Shown here one piece after another: positions 4,180 through 21,726 of a stretch of DNA of 64,000 nt. A model generated the notes under the pieces. The model did no database searches. It was not told the origin of the DNA and worked only from the letters and a program-made list of their open reading frames with translations. A program made the translations under genes and the position numbers. Source of the DNA: Bacilli bacterium (GTDB lineage Bacteria > Bacillota_I > Bacilli_A > ML615J-28 > CAG-313); the NCBI GenBank assembly GCA_045589955.1, contig JAZNQD010000009.1, positions 48,294-112,293 on the forward strand. Direction: 5' to 3'. Position 1 is the stretch's first letter; every line of letters begins with the position of its first letter.

Positions 4180-4380
4180 TTAGTAACACGTATAGGCAAC
4201 AATGTCTTCCTCGTAATTGCCATAATCATATCCAATATATTTACCTTCAGCAGTAAAGTTTGAATTGGTTGCTCGCATTGTTTCTTCTAATGCTTGCTTA
4301 TTACTATCGGCACATATTGCACAATCTAAAACGGTATCAAATAAGATATATCCGTTTTCTGCTTCTCTAACTTCTAACAT
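4180..4380 (-). CDS. hypothetical protein
   Basis: 66 aa ORF. Confidence 0.5.
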   Translation of the reverse strand: MLEVREAENGYILFDTVLDCAICADSNKQALEETMRATNSNFTAEGKYIGYDYGNYEEDIVAYTCY

Positions 4381-4462
4381 GATTTTTTCCTTTCAAAATT
4401 GTGGTTGGTTGTATAAAAAAAGGACATGCTAAGCACATCCTTTTCTGTCATTAGCGGCGCTC

Positions 4463-4804
4463 TTAAGCTAATTGATAAACGCCTTTTTGTTCAGTCTTTT
4501 GTAATACCCCTTTTTTAGCAAGTAACCATACTCTATCCGCTACTTGTTTATTAGCGACGCTCTTACCTTTATCTTTGAGCCGCGTCACTACTTGAGATAT
4601 AGCCAGGGGGGTACCGGCGGCGGTAAACACTTCAATCAAATCCTTAGTAAACTGACCAGGAGCGCCGCTCTTAACTCTTTTAACCGGTTTGGATTCCTCT
4701 ACTTCCTCACTAGGTTCCATATTAAATACTTTCGGGATATTTACTTCACGCAAACTCGCAACTTGTTCTGCGCTTAAACCCGGTTGTTTATCTTCATCAT
4801 TCAT
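4463..4804 (-). CDS. putative DNA-binding (winged-helix-like) protein
   Basis: 113 aa, basic C-terminal half (RVWLLAKKGVLQKTEQKGVYQL); locally GC-richer; carries repeated GCGnCGCTCTTAA motif. Confidence 0.4.
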   Translation of the reverse strand: MNDEDKQPGLSAEQVASLREVNIPKVFNMEPSEEVEESKPVKRVKSGAPGQFTKDLIEVFTAAGTPLAISQVVTRLKDKGKSVANKQVADRVWLLAKKGVLQKTEQKGVYQLA

Positions 4805-5022
4805 GATTTTTTCCTTTCAGTTGGTTGATACAAAATTAAATGCGTATATATTCTAAAATAAAAAATATATAATATAATAACCTAATACACACTAGATTAT
4901 TGTATTATATATCTCATACCTCAGATATGCCAAACCGCTCTCCTTGGTCAATATAAAGACATTCTACTCAATCTATTATATATATCTCTATATCTTTTTT
5001 AACTCTATTAAATAAGTCTTAT

Positions 5023-5400
5023 ATAAATTGCAATAAATTTTAATATATCTTATTTAATTATTATATATTTATTATATCAATCACTTATCAACATATAAAT
5101 ATATAACTTTCAACATGCTTTTTTATATCTACTTATTTTGAAGTTTTAAGGTTAATAAATAAATTTGATATAAATTGCTAAAAAATTTTAATATCTTTTA
5201 TTTATTTTATATATTTATTTTAACCTCAAACTCTCTACATGCGAATATATTTTATCCACCATGCTTTTTTATTTATTCCAATCATTGAGCTTAATATAAA
5301 TTGCTAAAAATTTTAATATCTCTCAATCATTATTATAATTTTATTTTAACCGGTTTTCATCTACATGCGAATATATTTAAATCAACATGTAATCCAGCCC
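5023..5400. repeat. three ~125-bp tandem direct repeats (core TATAAATTGCTAAAAATTTTAATATCT ... CTACATGCGAATATATTT)
   Basis: Units start near 5023, 5169, 5294; exact 18-mer CTACATGCGAATATATTT at 5235 and 5359. Confidence 0.8.
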
Positions 5401-5510
5401 TTCCTTACCATATAATCCCTAACATGTACATATATTTTGCCTAACATGCCGGCGGGGGCCCGGGGGTGGGGGCCTTTACATGTAGGGGTAAAAAGTCAAC
5501 ATGCCGGCCC

Positions 5511-5615
5511 AGTAGGTATCTAAGCGGGAATGGTAGGTATCTAAGGCGTCTCGGCGTATCTCGGTGTGTTATTGTTAGGCAGTAGTATCGGTAGGTATCT
5601 AAGGCATCGGGATCG
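5511..5615. repeat. 14-mer iteron GGTAGGTATCTAAG x3 within G-rich island
   Basis: Copies at about 5513, 5534, 5600; surrounded by G-runs (GGCGGGGGCCCGGGGGTGGGGG) unusual for this AT-rich genome. Confidence 0.75.
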
Positions 5616-6637
5616 GTTATAGGAATTAGGGCATAGGCATTATCTCGGGCAGTAGGTAGGGAGGCAGCGGTGGCGGTAATCATATGGTCGTGTATGGAGG
5701 CCCGTGGGATAGTAGAAAAGTCGGTGTAGTTAGTTATGAGGGAAAAGTAGAAAGGTGTGTTGTATGGCGATTATATGGGGCAATGCTATTATATGAGGCG
5801 GTGGCGAGTAGAAGGAGGAGTTTTTTATAGATAGAGTATGTCAGACCAGAATATTATAGAAGTATACTTTATCTATATGTTAGTAATACATTTATGTCGG
5901 GAGAAGTGTATTGATTTGTATTACTATAGGAAAGACTCGCCACCATGAGGAGTTGAGTATTATTATTCTTTATTGAAGGGGAAGAATTCTGTTGTAGATT
6001 CTTTATTATTAGACCACCATGATTCTATACGATTATTTGCCCAGTGTATTCTTATATTATATTTATCGTTAGAGTTAGTGGTATTTTGGGTATTGAACAT
6101 TTTATCCATTACTTTTGATGCGGTGGAATTGAATGCGGATATGTTTATAGAGGTATTATTTTTTACTGTATCGTTTATTTCTTTTATTGTAGTTGGTTTA
6201 GTATACATTTCTTCTTTATCTATGGATTGAGAGTATAGTATTCTTGACATGTTGTATATATTCCTTTTTATTAGATATATTGAGTGTGTATATATGTTTT
6301 TTTGAATTGGTTTATTATATAGCGTGTAATAAATTATAAGTAAAGCAGTAATATTGTGTTAGTTATAAAAAAAGAAAAAAGACCAGTATGTGTATATATG
6401 TGGGGATATATATTACTGATCTTTTCTGTGTGTTAGTGTATATATTATATTGTGATGATTGATATTGTAGAGAGAATATTTTGGGGAATCATATAACTAG
6501 TAGGGAACTATATATGTATTCTTTCTACTTTATCTGATTTATATATACACACTAATAAGGAGGAGTTAGTATATGGTAGTATATATTGTTTTATTTTATT
6601 TGTAAAGTATTTTTTTATGTTGTGCGTAAGTTTTATT

Positions 6638-6672
6638 TTAGGTATAAGAAAAGGCGAATATTTTAGTAATAC
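6638..6672 (-). terminator. rho-independent terminator of 6698..7183 gene
   Basis: Hairpin AGGCGGGTATTACTAAAATATTCGCCT followed by T-run on minus strand. Confidence 0.5.
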
Positions 6673-6697
6673 CCGCCTGTTTCGATTTGTAGAGAAA

Positions 6698-7183
6698 TTA
6701 GTCTGTTAGTAGTCCGTCTTCTTTTAGTAGTTGACGAATAAACATTAGACCTTTGCTAGTCCAGTAGGTATGTGCTCTTGATAGAGGTTTGCCTTGACCG
6801 GTAGAAGCGTATTCGTACCAGCATATACGTGTTAGTCCTTGGTTTTGGTATTTAGCGTAAAGAACCCATACTTCTCCTTGTTGGAATTGTACTTTTTTGT
6901 TCTTTAAGTATTGGTTTAGTTTTATTGCGGACCAACCAAAACTTTTAGCTATTACCGTTGTTGTGAAGAGGCTAGAAGAAGATACTAACTCATCAAATGC
7001 ATCAGCTTTAATTTTAAGTTTAGCATTTTCTTTCTTAAGTTGTTTTACTTTTTCTTCTAGTTTAGCCTTTTCTTCTTGGACACGTTTGAGGGCACTAGGT
7101 CTTTTGGACTTTTTCTTTACTTGTTTTGTTTCGTATTCAGGGAATAATGTACCTTGTAATACGTTTTGATTTGTTTTGTTCAT
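6698..7183 (-). CDS. hypothetical protein, possible KilAC-like antirepressor C-terminal domain
   Basis: 161 aa; Lys-rich coiled-coil N-terminus, C-terminal half resembles KilAC-type domains (weak). Confidence 0.3.
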   Translation of the reverse strand: MNKTNQNVLQGTLFPEYETKQVKKKSKRPSALKRVQEEKAKLEEKVKQLKKENAKLKIKADAFDELVSSSSLFTTTVIAKSFGWSAIKLNQYLKNKKVQFQQGEVWVLYAKYQNQGLTRICWYEYASTGQGKPLSRAHTYWTSKGLMFIRQLLKEDGLLTD

Positions 7184-7237
7184 AATTATATGTATTAAAA
7201 ATTAGTTACAATAATGTTTTTAAACTTGTTGACTAGA

Positions 7238-7690
7238 TTATTCTGTTTTTTCTTTATTAAACATTTCTGGGAATAATTCTAGTATTTTATCTTTTATACA
7301 TTCTACGGAGTTTGTTTCTGTTATTGTATTCCATAGTTTCTTTTGTTCGTCATTAAATTTTACTACAATGGTTTTATATGTATTATCGAAGGAATCGTCA
7401 TAGGTAGTTACAACCCAGGGTGCAGTATCAACAATTCGAGATAATCTACAAGCTGGACAATTACAACCTTCTGTGTCATATTCTCCATCGTCATTACCCC
7501 AACATTCATAATTTCCACCACCCATACGAGTATATATAAGTAAATCGTAGTCTGTTACTGGACATTCTTCATCTTTAGTAAAAATATCTCTGAATCTGGG
7601 TATTTCTTGGTCTATACGAAAGCCTAATATTGCACTTCCTACTACTACTAAATTACCATTCATTCCGTGTACCATATTATATAAAGACAT
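7238..7690 (-). CDS. hypothetical protein
   Basis: 150 aa ORF. Confidence 0.55.
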   Translation of the reverse strand: MSLYNMVHGMNGNLVVVGSAILGFRIDQEIPRFRDIFTKDEECPVTDYDLLIYTRMGGGNYECWGNDDGEYDTEGCNCPACRLSRIVDTAPWVVTTYDDSFDNTYKTIVVKFNDEQKKLWNTITETNSVECIKDKILELFPEMFNKEKTE

Positions 7691-9848: not shown

Positions 9849-9923
9849 TGGCAGAGGCAGAGAGACTCGAACTCCCGACATTTGGTTTTGGGGACCAACG
9901 TTCTACCACTGAACTATACCTCT
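9849..9923 (-). tRNA. tRNA-Trp (CCA)
   Basis: Cloverleaf folded by hand: acceptor AGAGGTA/TGCCTCT, D GTTC/GAAC, anticodon loop CCCCAAA, T-loop TTCGAGT, encoded CCA. Confidence 0.7.
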
Positions 9924-10005
9924 GTGGCATACCCGGCAGGAAGATGTCCTACTCTTACGATGATGGAAACCGTATGCTTCACTTGATTCACGGGTATATA
10001 ATAAT

Positions 10006-10082
10006 TGGGGTGACTGATGGGACTTGAACCCACAACATTCGGGACCACAACCCGACGCTCTACCAATTGAGCTACAGCCAAC
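10006..10082 (-). tRNA. tRNA-His (GTG)
   Basis: Anticodon loop TTGTGGT, extra G-1 paired with discriminator C, encoded CCA. Confidence 0.7.
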
Positions 10083-10088
10083 ATAATA

Positions 10089-10162
10089 TGGAGCACTGTA
10101 GAGGAATTGCACCTCTCTTGTCGGTTTTGCAGACCGATGCATAACTTCTCTGCCAACAGTGC
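10089..10162 (-). tRNA. tRNA-Cys (GCA), atypical T-loop
   Basis: Acceptor GCACTGT/ACAGTGC, anticodon loop CTGCAAA, T-loop TGCAATT is non-canonical, encoded CCA. Confidence 0.55.
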
Positions 10163-10164
10163 AA

Positions 10165-10240
10165 TGGTGGTCAAGGACGGGATCGAACCGCCGACACGAA
10201 GATTTTCAGTCTCCTGCTCTACCTACTGAGCTACTTGACC
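10165..10240 (-). tRNA. tRNA-Phe (GAA)
   Basis: Acceptor GGTCAAG/CTTGACC, D GCTC/GAGC, anticodon loop CTGAAAA, T-loop TTCGATC, CCA. Confidence 0.75.
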
Positions 10241-10455: not shown

Positions 10456-11142
10456 TTATACTTCTGTATTTAAATTTTGTACTTTTTCTAATTCTTTAGC
10501 CGAATTAACTATCTTTTGTTGTGGATTATTACCTTCTATACCTTCATCATCTACCAAAAAGATTTTGTTTGTATTAAAATCTTTTACAAGTACAGTTTCT
10601 TGTTTGAATTCTTTACAAATTTCAATAGCAAATAACAATAGCATTTCACTAGGTACACCACCCAATTCAATAGATGTTGATTTATCATTATAAATTCTAT
10701 CACCAGATTGATATTTACCTCTAAAGTTATTCCCTACTGTTAAAGCTCCCAAGTACATATTTGGTTGTTCACCGAATTCTTTATTCCAAGTCTGTACCAA
10801 ATTGTTTACTTTTTTATCTTTAAAGACGTGATTCATTGTAGAATGATAAAGTTTCTTTAAAAATCCATACAATTTGTTTTTTTCAATATTATCAATCACT
10901 GTATTTACAGATAATGCAAATACGATCATACCACCACGATATTTTTCGAAACCATATTGCTCATCTGCGATTTTTTCATACAAAAAGGATTCTGTAAGCT
11001 TTTCTTGTCTAACAAAAGCCTTTTCATTTTCAGAGATTGCTTTTAGCATACCGGCATTGTAGTAGCAAACACCATTTGGGCGTCTGTCTTTTCCATCTGG
11101 TCTAAAATATTTAATTTCTTCTATTCGCATTTTGTACTCCAA
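10456..11142 (-). CDS. hypothetical protein (island gene 1)
   Basis: 228 aa ORF, no recognisable motif. Confidence 0.55.
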   Translation of the reverse strand: MEYKMRIEEIKYFRPDGKDRRPNGVCYYNAGMLKAISENEKAFVRQEKLTESFLYEKIADEQYGFEKYRGGMIVFALSVNTVIDNIEKNKLYGFLKKLYHSTMNHVFKDKKVNNLVQTWNKEFGEQPNMYLGALTVGNNFRGKYQSGDRIYNDKSTSIELGGVPSEMLLLFAIEICKEFKQETVLVKDFNTNKIFLVDDEGIEGNNPQQKIVNSAKELEKVQNLNTEV

Positions 11143-11696
11143 TCGTATTTACCTCTTTTCATTAACTCTCTTAAAAAATATCCATACATATGACGTGCAA
11201 AATTAGGTTTTTTGGTACCTGATAACTCATATTCTGTGTTTTCTGAGATTAATGAAAACTTATTGCCATGTATCTTGCTAAATCCATTCTTAATATCGTG
11301 TATAGAAAATTTAGATAATACTGGACTTGTAGGTTTGCCATATTTATTATACCATCTTGGTTCGTAATCAGCTGTTTTTAATAAGATACTCTCTTGTTTA
11401 TATTTACCACATAACCAAAGCATATCTTCAGCAAAAGTTTTTTTATTTCCGTTATTTATTACAAAAAAGGAAGCTTCTGTTACATCAACCTCATTTTCTT
11501 TTCCTTGGTTTTCTGTAAATCCACCTAAAATTGTAATATAACTATATCCTAAAGACCTAATATCAGTAACTAGTTCTTCTGTATACTTTTCGTTTTCTTT
11601 ATTAGAATTTTCATTACGACAAGCAGAAATAAAGCATATCTCATTGTCGTTGATATGCTGCAATACTCTACTTAATCTAGCTTCTAGCATTTCCAT
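11121..11696 (-). CDS. hypothetical protein (island gene 2)
   Basis: 191 aa ORF; promoter upstream. Confidence 0.55.
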   Translation of the reverse strand: MEMLEARLSRVLQHINDNEICFISACRNENSNKENEKYTEELVTDIRSLGYSYITILGGFTENQGKENEVDVTEASFFVINNGNKKTFAEDMLWLCGKYKQESILLKTADYEPRWYNKYGKPTSPVLSKFSIHDIKNGFSKIHGNKFSLISENTEYELSGTKKPNFARHMYGYFLRELMKRGKYDWSTKCE

Positions 11697-14079: not shown

Positions 14080-15114
14080 TTAATATGTACTTAAATTATC
14101 AAAATATCCTTTAACATAAACAACCGGCGTTCCTTTATCACCACTACCAGATGTCAAATCCATTAAAGAACCTAATAAATCAGTTAATCTTCTTGGAGTA
14201 GTACCTTGTGAAACCATATTACCTACTAAATTTTTATCTTTTTCTTTGATACTTTGCTTAATAGTATTAGTTAAATCATCACCGCTTAAATCTTTATAAT
14301 CATTATCAGCTAAATATTTAAGTTTTAATTCGTTAGGTGTTCCTTTTAATCCATCTGTATAAGCAGGACTTACAACAGGATCAGCCAATTCCCAAATACC
14401 ACCAACAGGATCTTTAAAACAACCATCTCCATATACCATTACTTCAATTGTTTTTCCTGTTTTTTCATAAATTGTTTTTTGGATACAATCAATTAATTTT
14501 TTTGCAGAAGAATACGACGGAAATAATTTTAGCTTTTCTTCAGTCGCTTTATTACTTCCATATAGACCATATTCACATTTATCTGAACAAATATCTTTTA
14601 AGGTTATATCAAACGTATTTTTATGAATCTGACAATCTATAATCCCATTAACATTACATACCGATTCATTTTGGTATACAATATAACACTCTTTACCTTC
14701 TGCTTCAACAATTGATTTATAATATTCATCATAATTCAATCCGGTAAAAGGATGATTTTGTAATACATTACCAACTTCATCGACATTAGGCATTCTTATA
14801 TAAACAGTTCCAGTAACTGCTCGTGCAATACCTTTTAAAATCATTGCAAAACGATTACGCGAATAAATTGGATTAAATACTAAAATATCTTTTGGATTAT
14901 TGAATACTTTTTTAACAGATTCGGCAACTTCATCAACCGTAACATAATTACCTTCTGTTCTTGCAACAATAGATTCTGTAATACCTAAAACATCTTTATC
15001 ATCTATTTCTAACCCACTATTTAAAAGTGTATCTGAAACAATTTGAGCTAAATCATCACCTTCTTTGAAAATTGGACAAACTAATCCATATACAGATGTA
15101 CCTATTGTGCGCAT
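14080..15114 (-). CDS. CofE-like (F420-0:gamma-glutamyl ligase family) amide ligase homolog
   Basis: N-terminal [13 protein letters not shown]...[20 protein letters not shown] and C-terminal [12 protein letters not shown] resemble conserved CofE/FbiB blocks (GDDLAELI, SKAEGR, EGTPVV.VRG). Confidence 0.5.
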
Positions 15115-15138: not shown

Positions 15139-15216
15139 TGGTGCGTCGAGCTGGATTCGAACCAACGACCAATCCGTTATGAGCGGACAGCTCTAACCGG
15201 GCTGAGCTACCGACGC
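15139..15216 (-). tRNA. tRNA-Met (CAT)
   Basis: Acceptor GCGTCGG/TCGACGC, anticodon loop CTCATAA, T-loop TTCGAAT, CCA; elongator or Ile-lysidine type not distinguishable. Confidence 0.7.
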
Positions 15217-15260
15217 ATATTTATTTAAATAACTAATAATCATGTTATTAAAAAATAAAA

Positions 15261-15334
15261 TGGCTGGAGGAACTGGAATCGAACCAGTATTCTGAGTGCC
15301 AAAAACTCATGTCCTTCCCTTAGACGATCCTCCA
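15261..15334 (-). tRNA. tRNA-Gln (TTG)
   Basis: Acceptor TGGAGGA/TCCTCCA, anticodon loop TTTTGGC, T-loop TTCGATT, CCA. Confidence 0.6.
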
Positions 15335-15338
15335 ATAA

Positions 15339-15423
15339 TGGTGGGTGAGGATGGATTTGAACCACCGATGTCTAAGACGGCGGATTTACAGTCCGCTGCA
15401 ATAACCAACTATGCGACTCACCC
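15339..15423 (-). tRNA. tRNA-Tyr (GTA), type II
   Basis: Acceptor GGGTGAG/CTCACCC, anticodon loop CTGTAAA, long variable arm, T-loop TTCAAAT, CCA. Confidence 0.65.
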
Positions 15424-15428
15424 TTAAA

Positions 15429-15505
15429 TGGTCGGAATGGCGAGACTTGAACTCACGACATCTAGTACCCAAAACTAGCGCTCTACCAGGCTGAGCTACA
15501 TTCCG
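15429..15505 (-). tRNA. tRNA-Pro (TGG)
   Basis: Acceptor CGGAATG/CATTCCG, D GCTC/GAGC, anticodon loop TTTGGGT, T-loop TTCAAGT, CCA. Confidence 0.7.
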
Positions 15506-16147: not shown

Positions 16148-17701
16148 TTAATATACTATTTGCATATAACGCTCTTGGTTAATAACTTTCAAAGTTGCTT
16201 CTAAAGCATCATAATCTTCGCCTAATGCAATTTTCATAACAGAAGGTGAACAACCAGATAACAAAATATTATTCTTATCGTTAACCGTAATAGGAGTTTG
16301 ATTACTACGACTATCTACGTTCCACCATATTAACTTAGGTAAAGTATATCCAGCTTTTTCATATTTAGCCTTTATACCTTCATAATTAGTAAAACCAAAT
16401 GAGTATTCATCAAATTCCATATCTGAAATAATAATAAGTTGTTTTGGCATATCAGCATCTGGTACTTTTTCGGCAACAGCTCTTTTCAAAATTAAATCGA
16501 AAACACTTTGTAAATTAGTATTACTACAATCACCGGTAAAAACAGAACGAATTTTATCCAATAATGTATTACCTTTAACTATTTTCCACTGTGCGTTACA
16601 TGAAAAAGGAATTACATAGTTACGCCAAACCAAAGACTTATTTCTTTCTGCTATATAAATTGCTAAAGACAAAGATACAGCCATCGGTAAACCATTCATT
16701 GAACCAGATGTATCGCAAACAACCAAACCGTTTATTTCTGGTACATAATCCGGTAAAGCTTTCCATTGCGCCTCGACAGTAGGATTTATATTGATATGAG
16801 AGCCATAACCAATAAAATCATAAGCATCACTATAAACCCGAATTAAATCATACGGATATAATGTTTTAGCATTTATTTTAGCTTTACCTTCTTTTACCGC
16901 TTCTATATACGCATTATACTTATCAGAATCGTTTTTAAAGAAAGCTTTTCTGTATTTAAATGCAGCATAAGAAGGAAGATTTTCATAGTTAATTTTATCG
17001 TATTCTTTATTAACTAATTTTGTTTCAACTATATCCAAATCTTTACGTAATAAAACCAAAGCTCTTCTATAAGCTCCAATTGCACCAAACTTCCCAGATT
17101 TCAACAGTATATTTAACCACTTACGTTTTTCTGCATTTTTTACGCTTGTTCGTGGTAACCATTTAGCTAATAAAGAAATATCATATAATTCACCTTTAAA
17201 ATGATGTTGTAAATCTTTTTCTAATTGCATACCTATATAATCTATTACTTCATCTCGACAAGCAGTAAGTAATAGTGGCATATAATCATCATATCTACCA
17301 TATTCTGCAATTAAACCTAAATTTTTGCATATCCAATCTTTTTCGACATTACCTAAATATTCTAAGCAAATACGAAATACTTTACGTTCACCTTGTCCGC
17401 CTCTTACATCACGAATATAAAAAAGAGTACGTAAAGCCAAAGTTTTATCATAGTTAAATGCATTTACAAAAAGATTTAATATACGAGATTTATCAGTTTC
17501 TTTACGTAAAGCTGCACCATGAAAAAACCAATCAACAAGAGCGTTTTGTGTAGAAATATTAGTCAACGCCCCATTTTCAGTATAGGTTTTATTTGACATA
17601 GCATTAATAAACGCATTAGTAGAAGATTCACTTACTAATGGTATAGCTTTAAACTCAGAAATTTTTGCAGTATATCCTAATAAATCTGTATATGTTTTCA
17701 T
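16148..17701 (-). CDS. vWA-domain protein with MIDAS motif and N-terminal helical DUF2828/TROVE-like module
   Basis: LVVCDTSGSMNG (DxSxS MIDAS) about residue 330; N-terminal YIRDVRGGQGERKVF block reminiscent of DUF2828 proteins; promoter upstream. Confidence 0.5.
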   Translation of the reverse strand: MKTYTDLLGYTAKISEFKAIPLVSESSTNAFINAMSNKTYTENGALTNISTQNALVDWFFHGAALRKETDKSRILNLFVNAFNYDKTLALRTLFYIRDVRGGQGERKVFRICLEYLGNVEKDWICKNLGLIAEYGRYDDYMPLLLTACRDEVIDYIGMQLEKDLQHHFKGELYDISLLAKWLPRTSVKNAEKRKWLNILLKSGKFGAIGAYRRALVLLRKDLDIVETKLVNKEYDKINYENLPSYAAFKYRKAFFKNDSDKYNAYIEAVKEGKAKINAKTLYPYDLIRVYSDAYDFIGYGSHININPTVEAQWKALPDYVPEINGLVVCDTSGSMNGLPMAVSLSLAIYIAERNKSLVWRNYVIPFSCNAQWKIVKGNTLLDKIRSVFTGDCSNTNLQSVFDLILKRAVAEKVPDADMPKQLIIISDMEFDEYSFGFTNYEGIKAKYEKAGYTLPKLIWWNVDSRSNQTPITVNDKNNILLSGCSPSVMKIALGEDYDALEATLKVINQERYMQIVY

Positions 17702-18338: not shown

Positions 18339-18431
18339 TGGCGGAATCAGAAGGATTCGAACCTTCGGCCCCTCATAATAAGGGACGACAGTTTAGCAAA
18401 CTGCTGGTTTCAGCCACTCACCCATGATTCC
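18339..18431 (-). tRNA. tRNA-Ser (GCT), type II
   Basis: Acceptor GGAATCA/TGATTCC, anticodon loop TGCTAAA, long variable arm, T-loop TTCGAAT, CCA. Confidence 0.7.
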
Positions 18432-18442
18432 AAAAAAAAAAC

Positions 18443-18520
18443 GGCTAGAGGAGGTGGAGTCGAACCACACACAACCAATATCTGCAGATACTAGAATTTC
18501 CCTCTACTTCCCGTCTTCTT
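18443..18520 (-). ncRNA. truncated tRNA-like element (acceptor stem + T-arm, single 8-bp hairpin replacing D and anticodon arms)
   Basis: Acceptor TAGAGGG/TCCTCTA, T-arm GTGG-TTCGACT-CCAC, hairpin CTAGTATC-TGCA-GATATTGG, 3' end CCG not CCA, followed by U10. Confidence 0.4.
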
Positions 18521-18579
18521 AATCAAACTTTCTTTCTGCAGAAATACTTATTTGACATAGTAGAGCTCCTCTTATAAAA

Positions 18580-18655
18580 TGGTGGAGGTAAGGAGGTTCG
18601 AACTCCTGACCCCCTGCTTGCAAAGCAGGTGCTCTCCCAACTGAGCTATACCCCC
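18580..18655 (-). tRNA. tRNA-Ala (TGC)
   Basis: Acceptor GGGGGTA/TACCTCC with G3:U70, anticodon loop TTTGCAA, T-loop TTCGAAC, CCA. Confidence 0.75.
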
Positions 18656-18862
18656 ACAAAAATAATATCTTATATAAGCGATTAATTGATACTTTATATA
18701 CAAGGTGCGAATCAGCGTTAGGCAGAGTTAGGACAATAAATCTTTCGGATATCACGACTTACCTAAGAAAATTCCTGTTAGCTCTTTCGGTGGTTGCCTC
18801 TATCATTCGTGTGTTAGATTTACTCAATTAATCATAATCCCTCGCACAAGGAATAGATATAA

Positions 18863-18938
18863 TGGCACACTCAACAGGACTCGAACCTGTAATAAAAGTT
18901 TAGAAGACTTTGGGTTTGTCCAATTAGCCTATGAGTGT
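18863..18938 (-). tRNA. tRNA-Arg (TCT)
   Basis: Acceptor ACACTCA/TGAGTGT, anticodon loop CTTCTAA, T-loop TTCGAGT, CCA; weak D-stem. Confidence 0.6.
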
Positions 18939-18940
18939 AA

Positions 18941-19012
18941 AAAATGAAGTAAACTAACCGTTAGACTGAATAGACAGTAAAGGAGTCGAACCTTATTTAA
19001 TTACTTCATAAA
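18941..19012 (-). ncRNA. tRNA-sized degenerate tRNA-like remnant
   Basis: Exactly fills the gap between tRNA-Arg and tRNA-Asp; 9-bp terminal stem ATGAAGTAA/TTACTTCAT and internal AAGG-TTCGACT-CCTT T-arm-like hairpin but no canonical cloverleaf on either strand. Confidence 0.3.
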
Positions 19013-19015
19013 AAC

Positions 19016-19092
19016 TGGCGGGATTGATGGGGCTCGAACCCACGACCCTCTGCGTGACAGGCAGATATTCTAACCAGCTGAACTACAACCCC
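19016..19092 (-). tRNA. tRNA-Asp (GTC)
   Basis: Acceptor GGGGTTG/CAATCCC, anticodon loop CTGTCAC, T-loop TTCGAGC, CCA. Confidence 0.7.
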
Positions 19093-19229
19093 GTAAATGG
19101 TGGATAGGTGGGATTTTCACCCACATTTTTTAATTGACCGGTAAGTTTTACATTTCAAAAACACTCATAATGATTTATCTAGATAATTACTATTTTAATT
19201 TTTGTTTTTAAACTACTATCCTATAAAAA

Positions 19230-19314
19230 TGGCGGAGGGTGAGGGACTCGAACTCTCACAACCTTTCGGTCGGCGGTTTTCAAGACCGCTGCAATACCAT
19301 TATGCGAACCCTCC
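19230..19314 (-). tRNA. tRNA-Ser (TGA), type II
   Basis: Acceptor GGAGGGT/ACCCTCC, anticodon loop CTTGAAA, long variable arm, T-loop TTCGAGT, CCA. Confidence 0.7.
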
Positions 19315-19486
19315 AAAATAAAGGTGCTTTATCAGTACTCTTACGTAATAAAGCTTCGACTGCAGTTCAGGCATCCTTTCCACCTATATAGATGTAGTTC
19401 TATACCGACTCCCTATTTCAAACATTAGGGGCATGTACCAAACAAACTTATCTAGAATCAATGTTCGTTTGGATTTAAAGTACAGA

Positions 19487-19687
19487 TTATTTAAATACTA
19501 CTGGCATAACACTTAAATAATCCGTACTTTCTTTTTTCCAATCAAACTTTTTTATTTCTTTTTTCTTATTTTTAATTACTCTAGTACGTAATAAACCTTT
19601 TAACTGAGCCTCTATCAACATAAAATTTCGTCTTTTAGGCGCTTTAATTTTAAGCTTAAACTTATTTTTCATAATCTTGACCTTCAA
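19487..19687 (-). CDS. small highly basic hypothetical protein
   Basis: 66 aa, Lys/Arg rich; directly downstream of ACP gene. Confidence 0.4.
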   Translation of the reverse strand: MKVKIMKNKFKLKIKAPKRRNFMLIEAQLKGLLRTRVIKNKKKEIKKFDWKKESTDYLSVMPVVFK

Positions 19688-19938
19688 ATATGTTTTTCAA
19701 GATATTCAACTAAGTCCTTTACAGTTTCTATTTTTTCAGCATCATTATCTGCAATTTCTAAACCAAATTCTTCTTCAACGTACATAATTAATTCAACATG
19801 ATCTAAACTATCTAAATATAAATCATTATCAAAAGTATGTGTCATAAGAATTTCATTTCTATGCTTACCTGACACGTCTTCAATTAATTTTGCAACTTTA
19901 TTGAATATCTCTTTGTTTTCCATGACCATTTCTTTCAT
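19684..19938 (-). CDS. acpP: acyl carrier protein
   Basis: MKEMVMENKEIFNKVAKLIEDV...DNDLYLDSLDHVELIMYVEEEFGLEIADNDAEKIETVKDLVEYL carries the DSL phosphopantetheine-attachment motif and helix-II acidic patch. The ORF-track N-terminal extension 19939..20106 is spurious because it overlaps two tRNAs. Confidence 0.75.
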   Translation of the reverse strand: MKEMVMENKEIFNKVAKLIEDVSGKHRNEILMTHTFDNDLYLDSLDHVELIMYVEEEFGLEIADNDAEKIETVKDLVEYLEKHI

Positions 19939-19943
19939 ATAAT

Positions 19944-20019
19944 TGGAGCGAGTGAACGGGCTCGAACCGTCGACATCAACCTTGGCAAGGTTGCGCTCTA
20001 CCAACTGAGCTACACTCGC
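19944..20019 (-). tRNA. tRNA-Gly (GCC)
   Basis: Acceptor GCGAGTG/CACTCGC, D GCTC/GAGC, anticodon loop TTGCCAA, T-loop TTCGAGC, CCA. Confidence 0.75.
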
Positions 20020-20028
20020 AAAAAATGC

Positions 20029-20150
20029 GGGTAAGGGATAGATTCGAACTACCGACCAAGAGGTTACCAACCATGCAGATACAATTGCTGTGCCTATTTT
20101 TACCAAAATAGTTTATTTGCTTCTTGCTCTAACCGCTGAGCTACCTTACC
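20029..20150 (-). tRNA. anomalous 122-nt tRNA (candidate Thr, GGT) with about 50 nt of extra internal sequence; possible intron-containing gene or pseudogene
   Basis: Perfect acceptor GGTAAGG/CCTTACC, D-arm GCTC-AGCGGTTAGA-GC and T-arm GGTAG-TTCGAAT-CTATC, internal CTATT-TTGGTAA-AATAG anticodon-like hairpin, 3' end GCA instead of CCA. Confidence 0.4.
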
Positions 20151-20158
20151 CATAAGAA

Positions 20159-20398
20159 CTAACTTATTTCAATAGTTTTAAATAAAAATGTAATGGTAAT
20201 CTGAAATGTACGAATTATATCTTCATCTAAAACTTCTACAAATAACACTTTATCACCGTCTAATGCAACACTTTTCGAATACCATTCTGGATGTTTTTCT
20301 ACCCATTCTTGCGCTAATGACATGGGATGAAGATTTTGTTCACTCTCATAGTCTTCCCAGTCAATATCATTTTGTAATCGTATTTTACATTTTTGCAT
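20159..20398 (-). CDS. hypothetical protein
   Basis: 79 aa ORF. Confidence 0.45.
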   Translation of the reverse strand: MQKCKIRLQNDIDWEDYESEQNLHPMSLAQEWVEKHPEWYSKSVALDGDKVLFVEVLDEDIIRTFQITITFLFKTIEIS

Positions 20399-20420
20399 TT
20401 AACATCTTTCTTTTAAATTG

Positions 20421-20507
20421 TGGTGGGCTAGGCCGGAATCGAACCGGCACGGGATTGCTCCCAACAGATTTTAAGTCTGCAGCGTCTACCAGTTCCGCCA
20501 CAAGCCC
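20421..20507 (-). tRNA. tRNA-Leu (TAA), type II
   Basis: Anticodon loop CTTAAAA, long variable arm, T-arm GCCGG-TTCGATT-CCGGC, CCA. Confidence 0.7.
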
Positions 20508-20526
20508 ATATTAAGTAATAATTTCT

Positions 20527-20567
20527 TAAAAAAGAAGTGTCCTTTATTTTCAAGAACACTTACAATA
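20527..20567 (-). terminator. rho-independent terminator after small basic protein gene
   Basis: Hairpin AAGTGTTC...GGACACTT followed by CTTTTTTAAG on minus. Confidence 0.4.
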
Positions 20568-20603
20568 TGCATTAAAATTTTTAAATGTAAAACAAAAAAG
20601 TGA

Positions 20604-20789
20604 TTATTTTTTCTTTTTACTCGCTACTTGTAAAGTGACTTCTTTTTTAGCAGTGTTAGTATTACACGATGGAGCTTTACCAACTGTTGATTTTAATAAA
20701 TGAAAGCTTGGCATTAATTTCATTCTTTTTGCCCAGCGTTTAGCAAACATTATTTCTTCAACAGTTTTCTTTTTCTTTTCCATAGCCAT
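20604..20789 (-). CDS. small basic protein (61 aa)
   Basis: Start moved to ATG 20787-20789 (MAMEKKKK) with AGGAG RBS; the longer ORF-track start overlaps tRNA-Asn. Confidence 0.45.
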   Translation of the reverse strand: MAMEKKKKTVEEIMFAKRWAKRMKLMPSFHLLKSTVGKAPSCNTNTAKKEVTLQVASKKKK

Positions 20790-20815
20790 TATATCATACT
20801 CCTTTTTATAAAAAT

Positions 20816-20890
20816 TGGCTGGGATGGAGGGATTCGAACCCCCGACCAATCGGTTAACAGCTGATTGCACTGCCGCTGTGCTACATCCCA
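20816..20890 (-). tRNA. tRNA-Asn (GTT)
   Basis: Acceptor TGGGATG/CATCCCA, D GCAC/GTGC, anticodon loop CTGTTAA, T-loop TTCGAAT, CCA. Confidence 0.65.
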
Positions 20891-20902
20891 ATGATTAAAA
20901 GT

Positions 20903-20979
20903 TGGTTGGCCGAGCGAGACTTGAACTTGCGACCCCAGCTTTATCAGAGCTGTGCTCTAACCACCTGAGCTACCGACCA
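20903..20979 (-). tRNA. tRNA-Ile (GAT)
   Basis: Anticodon stem CAGCT/AGCTG with loop CTGATAA, T-loop TTCAAGT, CCA. Confidence 0.7.
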
Positions 20980-20984
20980 ATAAA

Positions 20985-21060
20985 TGGTGCCAGCAGAGAG
21001 ACTTGAACTCCCAACCTTCTCATTACAAGTGAGTTGCTCTACCAATTGAGCTATGCTGGC
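20985..21060 (-). tRNA. tRNA-Thr (TGT)
   Basis: Acceptor GCCAGCA/TGCTGGC, D GCTC/GAGC, anticodon loop CTTGTAA, T-loop TTCAAGT, CCA. Confidence 0.7.
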
Positions 21061-21077
21061 AATGTATAATATAAGAA

Positions 21078-21596
21078 CTATTCTCTCGAATTATTTTTAG
21101 AAACAAATTTCTGTTTTTTATTCTTTTTGGAATTTTTCATATATTTATTTCTAATTTCTTGTATTTTCTGCTTCTTTTGTTGAAGTAACATATTCTCATA
21201 TCGTTTACGTATTTCTTTAGCACTTTTATCAGCTTCCTTGTTATAATAAGAAAGGACAGTACCGTCTTGGCAATGTCCCTTAATCCACATAACATGGCAA
21301 TTCAAAGCTTCTAATCGTTCTAAAATGTTATCGAGAATTATTTTTTCATTTGGTCGATATGAGCCATTTCTAATTGCGTGAATTGCGTATGAAGAATCCG
21401 TTAACAAGGTAATATGTTCTTTAGTATCTTTTATACTAACAAGAGCAAATAAAATAGCGCGTAATTCAGCAGTATTATTATCAGATTCTTCTACAACCGC
21501 AGCATCTCTAAAAATTTCTCTGTTTCTAGCGTCTGTAATAACAAATGCTATACCCGAATTATTTTTACGTGTGCTTGCGTCGGTATATATTTTCAC
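21078..21596 (-). CDS. rnhA: ribonuclease H (RNase HI-like)
   Basis: DASTRKNNSGIAFVI...AELRAILFAL...LLTDSSYAI...MWIKGHCQDGT...NKEADKSAKE matches D-E-D-H-D RNase H catalytic layout. Confidence 0.6.
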   Translation of the reverse strand: MKIYTDASTRKNNSGIAFVITDARNREIFRDAAVVEESDNNTAELRAILFALVSIKDTKEHITLLTDSSYAIHAIRNGSYRPNEKIILDNILERLEALNCHVMWIKGHCQDGTVLSYYNKEADKSAKEIRKRYENMLLQQKKQKIQEIRNKYMKNSKKNKKQKFVSKNNSRE

Positions 21597-21649
21597 AAGA
21601 TTTGTCCTAGCTTAATTTACCTATTATCTAGAACATTTAGTGATATAAT

Positions 21650-21726
21650 TGGTGATCCCGACGAGATTCGAACTCGTGATCTTCTCCGTGAAAGGGAGAT
21701 GTCCTAGGCCGCTAGACGACGGGACC
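21650..21726 (-). tRNA. tRNA-Glu (TTC)
   Basis: Close to canonical bacterial tRNA-Glu: GGTCCCG-TC-GTCT-AGCGGCCTA-GGAC, anticodon loop CTTTCAC, T-loop TTCGAAT, CCA. Confidence 0.8.

What the first reader, a model, noticed from the sequence alone, without database searches (positions are those of the whole stretch)
4805..6697. 1.9-kb ORF-free region with tandem repeats, iterons, a G-rich island and a strand-asymmetry switch
The region contains three ~125-bp tandem direct repeats (5023-5400), each starting TATAAATTGCTAAAAATTTTAATATCT and ending near CTACATGCGAATATATTT, with at least 8 copies of (C/T)AACATG. A 14-mer GGTAGGTATCTAAG occurs three times at 5511-5615. G-runs (GGCGGGGGCCCGGGGGTGGGGG; GGCGGTGGCG x2) appear here in an otherwise roughly 30% GC genome. 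The plus strand is G+T-rich from 5440 to 6600 with no credible ORF on either strand. This looks like a replication origin, a packaging or terminal-repeat boundary, or a long structured ncRNA locus. It separates the early block from the accessory block.
Basis: seen in the sequence. Interest (0 to 1): 0.65.

Follow-up and report, generated by a model that had tools for sequence, protein, structure and literature searches.

The report
Conserved promoter-array control region, jumbo phage
The 1.9-kb stretch is not empty: it holds a small gene, a likely small RNA and a 1.2-kb non-coding control module that precedes the same small DNA-binding-protein gene in about twelve related uncultured phages. 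The module is a real conserved switch region, but whether it starts early transcription, replication or both still needs an experiment.

Summary
The repeats, G-rich island and local strand-skew flip are real and far beyond chance, but the region is not ORF-free. A 95-aa gene (5963-6250, minus strand) is under purifying selection. A ~200-nt structured, terminator-ended RNA-like element lies at 6365-6575 (minus).

The remaining 1.16 kb (4805-5962) is a conserved cis module. Read on the minus strand it holds:
- a strain-hypervariable array of CCTAC-type short repeats;
- a single-copy bipartite site, CCTACTG exactly 38 nt before TAAAGGCCCCC, plus a GC island;
- three AT-rich tandem units, each with an 8-bp box, a second box 22 bp on, 11 bp, then TAWAAT;
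- a 113-aa winged-helix gene heading a run of small genes.

The same architecture recurs in about 12 phage lineages whose winged-helix proteins are only 30-45% identical. The boxes are lineage-specific; the bipartite site is conserved. The site predicts the gene and the gene predicts the site.

Best reading: a tandem array of factor-dependent promoters with T4 MotA-box geometry and a T7 A1/A2/A3-like layout, under a conserved regulatory or initiation site. An added role as replication origin or genome end is plausible but untested.

The parts
6652..6678 (-). Hairpin plus U-rich tail directly after the ANT-domain gene stop at 6698. It is terminator-like.
   Evidence: 11-pair stem followed by TTTCTTATAC; invariant among strains.
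6578..6606 (-). Sigma-70-like promoter match TTTACA-17-TATACT, upstream of the structured element.
   Evidence: 10 of 12 matches; invariant among strains. This is a consensus match only.
6365..6575 (-). Structured, terminator-ended small-RNA-like element. It has an unpaired 5' CUCCUCCUU, a long stem with UUCCC/UUCCCC loops, then the hairpin 6383-6425 and the U-run 6368-6382.
   Evidence: Fold z = -6.06 on the minus strand against -2.64 on the plus strand. All 6 variable columns outside the terminator fall in unpaired positions. G-U pairs and a U-A to U-G change fit the minus strand only. No Rfam family matches.
6333..6362 (-). Promoter-like match CTAACA-18-TATAAT ahead of the 95-aa gene.
   Evidence: Consensus match only.
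5963..6250 (-). Protein-coding gene of 95 aa. It is N/T/S-rich, has no glycine, and has no known family.
   Evidence: Called in all relatives. 11 synonymous against 3 non-synonymous changes, with variable sites at codon positions 1/2/3 = 3/0/11. Its coding-strand GC skew of -0.29 is an outlier against +0.14 +/- 0.14 for the other genes. No significant Pfam or PHROG hit: nothing in PHROGs at E<=0.01, one sub-threshold Pfam match (SiaC, 16.6 bits vs cutoff 24.5).
5681..5962 (-). C-rich, G-poor non-coding stretch downstream of the 95-aa gene. It has mosaic haplotypes among strains, two hairpins and a second CTCCTCCTT.
   Evidence: (inverted repeat I22). Mean pairwise mismatch 8.7%, against about 2% in the genes.
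5517..5680 (.). Hypervariable array of degenerate short repeats of the type CTTAGATACCTAC, which are copies of the CCTAC half-site.
   Evidence: 25% mismatch and 34% gapped columns among strains that are otherwise about 98% identical. Relatives carry 1-3 copies. Analogous arrays exist in other lineages, with an 11-nt period in L052, L056 and L071.
5468..5516 (-). Single-copy bipartite site: CCTACTG (5516-5510), 31 nt, then TAAAGGCCCCC (5478-5468), preceded by CCCCTACATG.
   Evidence: The 38-nt spacing is exact in every lineage examined. There is one copy in the 64 kb and one per related locus. Divergence among strains is 0.8%.
5440..5488 (.). GC island with two GGCCCCC copies 14 bp apart. It holds the only canonical G-quadruplex motif of the window, on the plus strand.
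   Evidence: Invariant among strains.
5419..5503 (-). Two box pairs flanking the GC island, with no -10 hexamer behind them. Boxes start at 5503/5482 and 5448/5426 and are 21-22 bp apart.
5343..5389 (-). Promoter-like cassette C: box CATGTTGA (5389), box CATGTAGA 22 bp on (5367), 11 nt, then TAAAAT (5348-5343).
   Evidence: In the L012/L013 lineage the spacer sequence differs, but the box position, spacer length and -10 hexamer are kept.
5217..5263 (-). Promoter-like cassette B: CATGGTGG (5263), CATGTAGA (5241), 11 nt, then TAAAAT (5222-5217).
5071..5117 (-). Promoter-like cassette A: CATGTTGA (5117), TATGTTGA (5095), 11 nt, then TATAAT (5076-5071).
5020..5400 (.). Three AT-rich tandem units (147 and 126 nt). 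Each carries one cassette and one 26-bp element ATATAAATTGCWAWAAATTTTAATAT. This is the least stable duplex of the window.
   Evidence: One unit is deleted in strain L004.
4805..5019 (-). Leader and proximal promoter region with the Shine-Dalgarno sequence GAAAGGA ahead of the 113-aa gene.
4463..4804 (-). 113-aa gene. The N-terminus is disordered and carries an FNM motif; the C-terminus is a winged helix. It is the first gene of a run of small same-strand genes.
   Evidence: AlphaFold pLDDT of about 88 for residues 49-113. Winged-helix fold matches. A small family with no Pfam entry. It is always found behind the module.

Best explanation
Read on the minus strand, 4805-5962 is the cis-acting head of the operon that begins with the 113-aa winged-helix gene.

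SHOWN
The module has a fixed order of parts:
1. An array of degenerate CCTAC-type short repeats whose copy number and sequence change between near-identical strains.
2. A unique bipartite site, CCTACTG-N31-TAAAGGCCCCC, joined to a GC island.
3. Three AT-rich tandem units, each carrying two 8-bp boxes 22 bp apart, then 11 bp, then a -10-type hexamer TAWAAT, all pointing at the gene.
4. The winged-helix gene itself.

This architecture is conserved in about 12 lineages. The bipartite site keeps its sequence and exact spacing. The boxes change sequence from lineage to lineage but keep their geometry.

INFERRED MECHANISM
- The host sigma-A-type RNA polymerase uses the three TAWAAT hexamers. No usable -35 element is present. 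A phage-specified factor bound to the box at about -30, with a helper copy two helical turns upstream, supplies the missing upstream contact, as MotA does at T4 middle promoters.
- The three promoters, about 126-147 bp apart, fire in tandem into the winged-helix gene and the small genes behind it, as A1/A2/A3 do at the left end of T7.
- The recognition helix of the winged-helix protein is nearly invariant across the family. It most likely reads the only invariant DNA, namely the bipartite site and its CCTAC half-site copies, and so feeds back on the array or nucleates a second DNA transaction there.
- The cassettes sit in the most easily melted DNA of the window, next to its most GC-rich clamp. 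Transcription-coupled replication initiation of the T4 oriF/oriG or T7 origin type is therefore a plausible added role.
For: ARCHITECTURE AND STATISTICS IN THE WINDOW
- establish the parts and their over-representation.
- The composite box + N10-12 + TAWAAT occurs 3 times in the module and 0 times elsewhere on either strand of the 64 kb.

BOX-TO-HEXAMER GEOMETRY ACROSS LINEAGES
- The same geometry (box, 10-12 nt, TAWAAT, on the sense strand) holds in 7 of 7 lineages with seven different box sequences.
- The chance of a hit is about 0.06 per lineage. L071 adds an eighth case.
- A second box lies 21-22 bp upstream in most lineages.

CONSTRAINT ON THE NON-CODING DNA
- The bipartite site and GC island diverge 0.8% among strains and the tandem units 3.0%, against about 2% in the flanking genes and 25% plus 34% gaps in the short-repeat array.
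- The module stays about 95% identical where the protein has dropped to 86%.
- The L053/L054 pair shows the same trend.

LINKAGE IN BOTH DIRECTIONS
- Starting from the protein: 7 of 7 loci with enough upstream DNA carry the site.
- Starting from the DNA motif with the -38 half-site: 6 of 6 new loci carry a family gene 390-500 nt downstream. Motif hits without the half-site were not followed up systematically: of the three scanned, none carried the gene.

PRECEDENTS
- The T4 MotA box lies 12 +/- 1 bp from the -10 element and replaces the -35 element (PMC2988021).
- T7 A1/A2/A3 lie at 498, 626 and 750, with gene 0.3 at 925 and a short-repeat array upstream.

THE PROTEIN
- A confident C-terminal winged helix.
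- Invariant K86, D90, W93, K97, G108 and Y110.
Against: - There are no transcript, footprint or replication data.
- In DNA that is 85-90% A+T, -10-like hexamers are common. The generic promoter scan is not enriched over shuffles (18 found against 15.9 expected).
- I delimited the boxes after seeing the data, so the 0.06-per-lineage figure is optimistic.
- No MotA or AsiA homologue, nor any other identifiable activator, was found among 20 neighbouring small proteins.
- The boxes occur only in the module, unlike a general promoter class.
- Two of the five box pairs have no -10 hexamer behind them. That suits a nucleoprotein complex such as an origin or operator as well as it suits a promoter.
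- The G>C bias of the plus strand over 5440-6700 is opposite to that of the other minus-strand genes and is not explained by this model.
- Which protein binds which element is pure inference.
Confidence: 0.5

Rival explanations
1. Replication origin. The ACATG box pairs are iterons for a phage initiator, the AT-rich tandem units are the unwinding element, and the GC island with the bipartite site marks the loading or priming boundary. The adjacent winged-helix gene encodes the origin-binding protein. This does not exclude the promoter reading: T4 oriF/oriG and the T7 origins are promoters followed by AT-rich DNA.
For: - Ten same-orientation boxes form five pairs spaced two helical turns apart.
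- The least stable duplex of the 64 kb lies directly beside its most GC-rich 40-mer.
- Box sequence changes by lineage while the geometry is kept, as with iteron/initiator pairs.
- A DNA-binding-fold gene lies immediately downstream in every lineage.
- There is a local cumulative-skew minimum at about 5000-5440.
- Every T7 origin is a promoter (PMC8373140). T4 origins require a MotA-dependent promoter (references in PMC2988021).
Against: - The skew flip is only about 1.3 kb wide and follows no genome-scale trend. The large inflection of the window is at about 29 kb, where gene orientation switches.
- DnaA boxes are not enriched: 2 one-mismatch sites out of 33 in the window.
- The boxes are not contiguous 17-22-bp iterons.
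- The conserved box-to-TAWAAT spacing is not required of iterons.
- At 113 aa the protein is far smaller than known iteron initiators, and its closest folds are generic winged helices.
- DnaB and other replication genes lie about 20 kb away.
Confidence: 0.3
2. Genome end or concatemer junction of a linear, terminally repetitive genome, organised like the T7 left end. In this reading the short-repeat array and the conserved GC-rich site are the terminase or end-processing signals. The tandem promoters are then the first DNA to enter the cell and drive the first genes.
For: - The order of parts matches the T7 left end: a terminal repeat containing CCTAAAGTTCCCCCATAGGGGG, then an array of CCTAAAG short repeats, then A1/A2/A3 at 128 and 124 bp spacing, then the first early gene. 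The module here has short repeats, then ..GTAAAGGCCCCC..CCCC, then three units at 126 and 147 bp, then the first gene.
- The sense strand is GAC-rich and GTC-poor in the short-repeat arrays of several lineages, as in the T7 array.
- The site is single-copy per genome.
- Contigs from many samples break inside the module: L007, L009-L013, L055, L058, L059 and L189. A 245-kb contig (L250) ends 283 nt past the site.
Against: - The break points are scattered, with no shared end nucleotide (L012 and L013 start at different positions in the alignment (about 78 columns apart; site at 76 vs 65 nt from the contig start)). Tandem repeats and strain hypervariability alone would break assemblies.
- Six or more contigs read straight through. 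The 231-kb and 200-kb contigs have the module in their interior.
- The resemblance to T7 is one of style; the sequences cannot be aligned.
- The window lineage itself is not GAC-enriched.
- No terminase gene is nearby.
Confidence: 0.15
3. A long structured non-coding RNA, or a G/U-rich plus-strand transcript, spans 5440-6600.
For: - The plus strand is G+T-rich (62%) and C-poor (10%) over 1.2 kb.
- The hairpin at 6383-6425 could terminate transcription in either direction.
- The 211-nt segment 6365-6575 folds far better than shuffles.
Against: - The interval contains a real minus-strand protein gene.
- It contains a 170-nt stretch with no sequence conservation at all among sister strains.
- No Rfam family matches even at E<=10.
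- In the one segment that looks structured, the G-U pairs favour the minus strand.
- The strand composition of the corresponding short-repeat zone is not conserved between lineages: it is purine-rich on the sense strand in L052 and L057 and pyrimidine-rich here.
Confidence: 0.05
4. A T5-type injection-stop or DNA-entry pause region: a large repeat-rich untranslated block that halts genome transfer until the early genes are expressed.
For: [quoted passage not shown] It is conserved in order among T5-like phages and lies beside the pre-early genes (bioRxiv 10.1101/866236).
- The region here has the same general look and also lies beside small early-type genes.
Against: - The paired DnaA boxes that define the conserved core of the T5 region are absent.
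- Here the early-type genes lie downstream of outward-firing promoter-like cassettes; this is not a block of inverted repeats.
- This phage has a contractile-tail sheath and no detectable T5-like genes.
- Two-step DNA entry cannot be tested in silico.
Confidence: 0.04
5. An inert spacer or decaying remnant with chance repeats.
For: The 170-nt short-repeat array evolves almost freely. One tandem unit is dispensable in a natural strain, L004.
Against: - The bipartite site, GC island and tandem units are more conserved than the neighbouring genes.
- The architecture persists at 30-45% protein identity in about 12 lineages.
Confidence: 0.02

Closest known systems
Bacteriophage T4 middle promoters (MotA box with sigma appropriation), including the promoter-dependent origins oriF and oriG
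   Same: - A phage-specific box replaces the -35 element and sits 10-12 bp upstream of a good sigma-70-type -10 hexamer. In T4 the distance is 12 +/- 1 bp (PMC2988021).
- In T4 such promoters, followed by easily unwound DNA, double as replication origins.
- The tail sheath of this phage is distantly T4-like, at about 24% identity.
   Different: - The box sequence (CATGTAGA here) is not the MotA box and differs in every lineage.
- A second box lies 22 bp upstream.
- The cassettes occur only in this one module, whereas T4 has about 60 such sites around its genome.
- No MotA or AsiA homologue was detected.
Left end of bacteriophage T7: terminal repeat, CCTAAAG short-repeat array, tandem early promoters A1/A2/A3, gene 0.3
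   Same: - The order of parts and the scale are the same.
- Both have three tandem promoters about 125 bp apart, with the first early gene 175-260 nt further on.
- Both have a degenerate short-repeat array upstream, with a C-rich, G-poor sense strand.
- Both have a TAAAG + C5 ... G4-5 element.
   Different: - T7 A1-A3 are canonical -35/-10 host promoters and are not tandem duplicates.
[quoted passage not shown]
- No sequence homology exists, and the phage type is unrelated (a myovirus-like jumbo phage).
Iteron-type origins with an adjacent autoregulated initiator gene (P1 oriR/repA, R6K, pSC101, lambda ori/O); from general knowledge
   Same: - Repeated same-orientation binding sites are phased by whole helical turns.
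- They sit next to an AT-rich unwinding region and directly upstream of a DNA-binding-protein gene.
- Site sequence co-varies with lineage.
   Different: - The boxes are 8 bp long, arranged in separated pairs, and tied to -10 hexamers.
- There is no DnaA-box cluster.
- The protein is 113 aa with a single winged helix, unlike the two-winged-helix Rep proteins.
- Replication function has not been tested.
The T5 injection-stop (iss) untranslated region
   Same: It is a kilobase-scale ORF-free block crowded with repeats, conserved in order among relatives, and adjacent to the earliest genes.
   Different: The region here has no paired DnaA boxes, no large inverted repeats and a different phage type. 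Its dominant feature is a set of promoter-like cassettes.
Z-alpha and Rpa2-type winged-helix domains (for the 113-aa protein only)
   Same: - The best fold matches are ZBP1 and ADAR1 Z-alpha, with target TM-scores of 0.81-0.87 and rmsd of 1.2-1.4 A.
- The best, though non-significant, profile hits in the PDB are ZBP1 Z-alpha (E = 0.07) and archaeal Rpa2 winged helix (E = 0.18).
- The motif LAKKGxLxK resembles ADAR1 LAKKGKLQK (that ADAR1 sequence was recalled from memory).
   Different: - None of these scores is significant. Fur, LexA and BlaI winged helices score almost as well.
- The Z-alpha Asn of the recognition helix is not conserved here.
- No evidence of Z-DNA binding exists.

Membership tests
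Sigma-70/sigma-A type promoter | A -10 hexamer close to TATAAT. | tested here: met
   TAAAAT, TAAAAT and TATAAT lie at 5343-5348, 5217-5222 and 5071-5076 on the minus strand. The equivalent hexamer is present in 7 of 7 lineages.
Sigma-70/sigma-A type promoter | A -35 hexamer close to TTGACA, 16-18 bp upstream. | tested here: not met
   The best candidates are TTCGCA, TTCGCA and TTTATA. No TTGACA-like hexamer sits at that position in L053, L056 or L052.
T4 MotA-dependent middle promoter | An activator box centred near -30, 12 +/- 1 bp from the -10 element. | tested here: met
   An 8-bp box is followed by 10-12 bp and then TAWAAT in the cassettes of every lineage. The definition comes from PMC2988021.
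T4 MotA-dependent middle promoter | A box matching (a/t)(a/t)(a/t)TGCTTtA. | tested here: not met
   The boxes are CATGTAGA here, and CAACTTAA, TCAGTTAA, CAACTGYT, TTCGCTWA, CTGATK, CTCTGTTT and TTCGACAG in the other lineages.
T4 MotA-dependent middle promoter | MotA and AsiA encoded by the phage. | tested here: inconclusive
   Twenty small neighbouring proteins gave no Pfam hit to either. Only 64 kb of a genome of about 231 kb was available.
T4 MotA-dependent middle promoter | Many copies spread over the genome. | tested here: not met
   The composite occurs 3 times in the module and 0 times elsewhere in the 64 kb.
Iteron-type replication origin | Three or more direct repeats phased by helical turns. 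| tested here: met
   Ten boxes in one orientation, arranged as five pairs 21-22 bp apart.
Iteron-type replication origin | An adjacent AT-rich unwinding element. | tested here: met
   4950-5350 is the least stable duplex of the window at three window sizes.
Iteron-type replication origin | DnaA boxes or another host-initiator site cluster. | tested here: not met
   Two one-mismatch DnaA boxes out of 33 in the window.
Iteron-type replication origin | Supports initiation of replication. | not testable with these tools
   This needs marker-frequency data or a plasmid origin assay.
T7-like genome end (concatemer junction plus early promoters) | Tandem early promoters followed by the first early gene, with a short-repeat array upstream. 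| tested here: met
   Searches compared with the T7 record.
T7-like genome end (concatemer junction plus early promoters) | A physical DNA terminus or direct terminal repeat at this place. | tested here: inconclusive
   Contig ends cluster in the module but at scattered positions, and several contigs read through. No read-level data were available.
T5 injection-stop region | Conserved pairs of DnaA boxes in large inverted repeats. | tested here: not met
   against the description in bioRxiv 10.1101/866236.
Known RNA families (Rfam 15) | A match at or above the gathering score. | tested here: not met
   Only tRNAs elsewhere in the window reach threshold. The best match in 4300-7300 is the L20 leader at 23.4 bits against 58.7 required.
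Z-alpha (Z-DNA-binding) domain, for the 113-aa protein | Z-alpha fold with the conserved Asn and Tyr of helix 3 and Trp of the wing. | tested here: inconclusive
   It is the top fold hit and the top, non-significant, sequence hit. Aromatic residues W93 and Y110 are invariant, but the Asn position is Ala, Ser or Cys.

The most novel reading that the evidence does not exclude
The module is a self-contained start site for the phage genome, acting as a transcription-primed replication origin, a first-entering DNA end, or both. Its unique bipartite site, CCTACTG-N31-TAAAGGCCCCC, contains a strictly alternating pyrimidine-purine TAYAYGTA. In this reading that site is read by the Z-alpha-like winged-helix protein encoded right behind it. 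The lineage-specific boxes would then give each phage lineage a private activator/promoter code, a kind of replication or expression 'incompatibility group' for jumbo phages.
Probability: 0.12. Interest if true: 0.8.

Novelty: new variant of a known kind. Interest (0 to 1): 0.55.

Why it matters
Large uncultured phages are annotated almost entirely by their proteins, and their cis-acting DNA is essentially unmapped.

Here a defined non-coding module can be recognised from sequence alone. It consists of a unique site with exact 38-nt geometry, tandem factor-dependent promoter cassettes and a dedicated small winged-helix gene. It occurs in about a dozen lineages from gut and rumen-type metagenomes.

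If the reading is right, it gives several things:
- a landmark for where early expression, and possibly replication or DNA entry, begins in these genomes;
- a natural set of orthogonal box/factor pairs with one shared geometry;
- a second example, outside the T4 group, of promoters in which a phage factor replaces -35 recognition.

It also makes directly testable which protein reads which element.

Tried and rejected
- Hidden gene under another genetic code. None of the 20 tRNAs is a suppressor. All six frames carry TAA, TAG and TGA stops across 4805-5960.
- ORF 5441-5683(-), 80 aa. It is not called in any relative and is broken by strain indels.
- DnaA-box cluster. Not enriched.
- G-quadruplex as the conserved feature. 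The only such motif of the window is at 5454-5488(+), but its strand and presence are not conserved in L015, L052 or L053.
- GC island as an intrinsic terminator. The stem is only 4-5 bp and no U-run follows on the sense strand, by inspection.
- C-rich sense RNA as a Rho-loading site. This is inconsistent with L052 and L056, where the upstream genes are divergent.
- The bipartite site as a general promoter for a phage RNA polymerase. There is one copy per 64 kb. The second TAAAGGCCC, at 42276, is a terminator-like element.
- Diversity-generating retroelement or CRISPR-like origin of the hypervariable stretch. No repeat-spacer or template/variable-region structure is visible, and no reverse transcriptase was seen in the proteins scanned.
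- A shared GAC core in all short-repeat arrays. This holds in L015, L052 and L057 and weakly in L071, but not in the window or L056.
- DNA similarity to GenBank phages. None found.
- IMG/VR relatives of the 113-aa and 95-aa proteins, searched with single sequences. None found.
- A profile of all family members was too divergent for locus scanning.
- Genome-wide cumulative skew. Only 64 kb of about 231 kb was readable.


Full report
CONTEXT

The window is about 31% G+C. It carries a tail-sheath gene, a DnaB-type helicase and 20 tRNA genes. Its sheath is only about 24% identical to T4-group sheaths. The region of interest has no DNA match among GenBank phages. Identical or near-identical proteins occur on metagenome contigs of up to 231.5 kb, so this is an uncultured jumbo, myovirus-like phage. 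Genes on both sides of the finding are on the minus strand: an ANT-domain gene (6698-7183) and a 113-aa gene (4463-4804) that heads a run of small genes of unknown family.

CHECK OF THE OBSERVATION

What is confirmed:
- The AT-rich direct repeats exist, with start-to-start spacing of 147 and 126 nt.
- Their 26-bp core is unique to this place in 64 kb.
- The ACATG-type motif has 10 of its 19 window copies within 400 nt.
- CATG is under-represented genome-wide (106 seen against 183 expected) yet occurs 9 times in 5114-5500.
- The G-run island is the most GC-rich 40-mer of the window, and it abuts the least stable duplex of the window.
- The plus strand of 5440-6600 has 10% C against 25% G.

What needs correcting:
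- Several counts were overstated: (C/T)AACATG occurs 5 times, the exact 14-mer twice, and GGCGGTGGCG once.
- The skew flip is local and does not mark a genome-scale inflection.
- The region is not ORF-free.

THE RIGHT-HAND THIRD (5963-6697) IS ORDINARY GENE SPACE

The 95-aa ORF at 5963-6250(-) is called in every related contig. Among ten strains it shows 11 synonymous and 3 non-synonymous differences, with 11 of 14 variable sites at third codon positions. The other five frames show the opposite pattern. Its coding strand is unusually C-rich (skew -0.29, against +0.14 +/- 0.14 for the other genes).

Between the ANT gene and this gene lie four features:
- a terminator-like hairpin at 6652-6678;
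- a promoter-like match at 6578-6606;
- a 211-nt segment that folds with z = -6.06 on the minus strand against -2.64 on the plus strand;
- a strong hairpin with a U-run at 6368-6425, which ends that segment.

Among nine strains, all six variable columns outside the terminator loop are unpaired. The G-U pairs and one U-A to U-G change fit only the minus strand. I read this segment as a probable ~200-nt small RNA with an unpaired anti-Shine-Dalgarno-like CUCCUCCUU. No compensatory change is available to prove it, and it matches no Rfam family.

THE LEFT-HAND 1.16 KB (4805-5962) IS THE INTERESTING PART

An alignment of seven full-length strains gives the mean pairwise divergence of each segment:
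- about 2% in the three genes;
- 8.7% in the C-rich stretch 5681-5962;
- 25% mismatches plus 34% gapped columns in 5511-5680;
- 0.8% in 5440-5510;
- 3% in the tandem units.

In a lineage whose 113-aa protein is only 86% identical, the non-coding DNA from 5510 to 4805 is still about 95% identical. The DNA is therefore under stronger constraint than the gene it precedes.

ANATOMY, READ ON THE MINUS STRAND

Ten 8-bp boxes of consensus CATGTWGA form five pairs 21-22 bp apart. In each of the three tandem units, the downstream box is followed by exactly 11 nt and then TAAAAT, TAAAAT or TATAAT. The two remaining pairs flank the GC island and have no such hexamer behind them. The composite of box, 10-12 nt and TAWAAT occurs three times here and nowhere else on either strand of the 64 kb.

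COMPARATIVE EVIDENCE

The 113-aa protein has no Pfam family. A full HMMER scan found about 20 representatives at 30-45% identity, and a profile search found 43 more clusters. AlphaFold gives a confident C-terminal winged helix and a disordered N-terminus.

I fetched the genomic context for eight divergent members. Every locus with enough upstream DNA has 645-1820 nt without genes in front of the gene. The sequences cannot be aligned, but the order of parts is the same.

1. Degenerate short repeats. These have an 11-nt period in L052, L056 and L071.

2. A conserved site. YYYACT(G/C) starts exactly 38 nt before TAAAGG, giving the consensus CCTACTG-N2-TT-N~20-CCTATAYG-TAAAGGCCCCC, followed by C/G runs.

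3. Two to four AT-rich tandem units of 101-161 nt. Each has a lineage-specific 8-bp box, 10-12 nt and then TAWAAT on the sense strand, usually with a second box 21-22 bp upstream.

The box-to-hexamer geometry is present in 7 of 7 lineages, where the chance of a hit is about 0.06 per lineage. The caveat is that I drew the box limits after seeing the data.

Searching public collections with the DNA motif alone returned mostly chance hits. Every new hit that also had the -38 half-site carried a family gene 390-500 nt downstream, in 6 of 6 cases. Of the hits lacking the half-site, only three were scanned for the gene and none carried it. One more example lies 283 nt from the end of a 245-kb contig binned with a rumen Bacilli MAG. 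In the L053/L054 pair the site and tandem units are again more conserved than the flanking genes, and the short repeats less so.

INTERPRETATION

The part I regard as well supported is that the tandem units are promoter cassettes aimed at the winged-helix gene. A good -10 hexamer is held at a fixed 10-12 bp from a box that changes sequence between lineages, and no -35 element is present. That is the geometry of T4 middle promoters, where the MotA box lies 12 +/- 1 bp from the -10 and replaces the -35 (PMC2988021). Three such cassettes 126-147 bp apart, followed after about 260 nt by the first gene, repeat the layout of T7 A1/A2/A3 (498, 626 and 750; gene 0.3 at 925).

Who reads the boxes is unknown. 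They are confined to the module, and no MotA or AsiA homologue was detected.

The recognition helix of the winged-helix family is nearly invariant. The only invariant DNA is the bipartite site, whose CCTAC half-site is also what the hypervariable repeats are made of. I therefore infer that the protein binds that site rather than the boxes. This is inference only.

WHAT REMAINS OPEN

For an origin:
- phased same-orientation boxes;
- the weakest duplex of the window next to its strongest GC clamp;
- the local skew minimum;
- the fact that the T4 and T7 origins are promoters followed by AT-rich DNA.

Against an origin:
- no DnaA boxes;
- a skew signal only 1.3 kb wide.

For a T7-like end:
- the whole order of parts matches, including a short-repeat array and a TAAAG + C5 ... 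G-run element;
- contig breaks from many samples cluster in the module.

Against a T7-like end:
- the break points are scattered, as repeats and strain variation alone would produce;
- several contigs, including the 231-kb and 200-kb ones, read through.

The T5 injection-stop region is a known kilobase-scale repeat-rich untranslated block, but its defining paired DnaA boxes are absent here. The G>C bias of the plus strand across 5440-6700, opposite to that of neighbouring minus-strand genes, is not explained by any of these readings.

A LEAD, NOT A RESULT

The best fold matches of the winged helix are Z-alpha domains of ZBP1 and ADAR1 (target TM-score 0.81-0.87), closely followed by Fur, Rpa2, LexA and BlaI. 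The best profile hits in the PDB are ZBP1 Z-alpha (E = 0.07) and Rpa2 winged helix (E = 0.18), neither significant. The conserved half of the bipartite site, TAYAYGTA, is strictly alternating pyrimidine-purine. This is recorded as the most novel reading that the evidence does not exclude.

VERDICT

The finding is real and functional, but it is a composite. It holds one small gene, one probable small RNA, and a previously undescribed but recognisable kind of phage control module. The closest analogues of that module are T4 MotA-type promoters and the T7 left-end promoter array. I rate it a new variant of a known kind, of moderate interest.

Noticed in passing
L017 3900-5400 (IMGVR_UViG_3300032030_000023): In a distant relative, a run of early genes has a coding strand almost free of cytosine. 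GC skew is +0.6 to +0.9 over more than 1.5 kb, directly after a 340-nt repeat-rich intergenic region and a 1.5-kb island of opposite skew.
   Followed up: partly
window 6559-6608 (+): A perfect Shine-Dalgarno sequence AAGGAGGAG lies 7 nt before a 10-codon ORF (MVVYIVLFYL), antisense to the 5' end of the small-RNA-like element. A second AAGGAGGAG at 5812-5820 has no well-placed start codon.
   Followed up: no
window 9849-10240, 15139-15505, 18339-22231 (-): Twenty tRNA genes lie in three arrays covering most amino acids, with no suppressor. Contigs of relatives often start at the first array.
   Followed up: partly
whole window: CATG is under-represented (106 seen against 183 expected from base composition), which suggests avoidance of a CATG-specific restriction or methylation system. 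Nine copies are nevertheless concentrated in the control module.
   Followed up: partly
L059 220-525 and 824-1165; L084 2435-2788 and 3086-3427: Some lineages carry two tandem paralogues of the winged-helix gene, each with its own box-bearing upstream region.
   Followed up: partly
L007, L009, L010, L011, L012, L013, L055, L058, L059, L189, L250: Assemblies from many independent samples break inside the module. One is a 245-kb contig that ends 283 nt past the bipartite site. The break positions are not identical.
   Followed up: partly
window 5454-5488 (+): This is the only canonical G-quadruplex motif (four G3+ tracts with loops of up to 12 nt) in the 64 kb. Its strand and presence are not conserved in other lineages.
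   Followed up: yes
window 42240-42295: A bidirectional terminator-like element lies at the junction of convergent gene blocks. It shares TAAAGGCCC with the bipartite site, probably by coincidence.
   Followed up: partly
L064 and L068 (IMG/VR): Unrelated viral contigs carry CCCTAGGGGG...TATATATGTAAAGGCCCCCCTGG. This is a similar TAAAGG + C-run element, but without the -38 half-site and without the winged-helix gene.
   Followed up: no
window 11121-11696, 14080-15114, 16148-17701 (-): Matches to an S-adenosylmethionine lyase family, an F420-ligase-like family and DUF2828/DUF7788 lie a few kb from the module. These are accessory or anti-defence-type genes.
   Followed up: no
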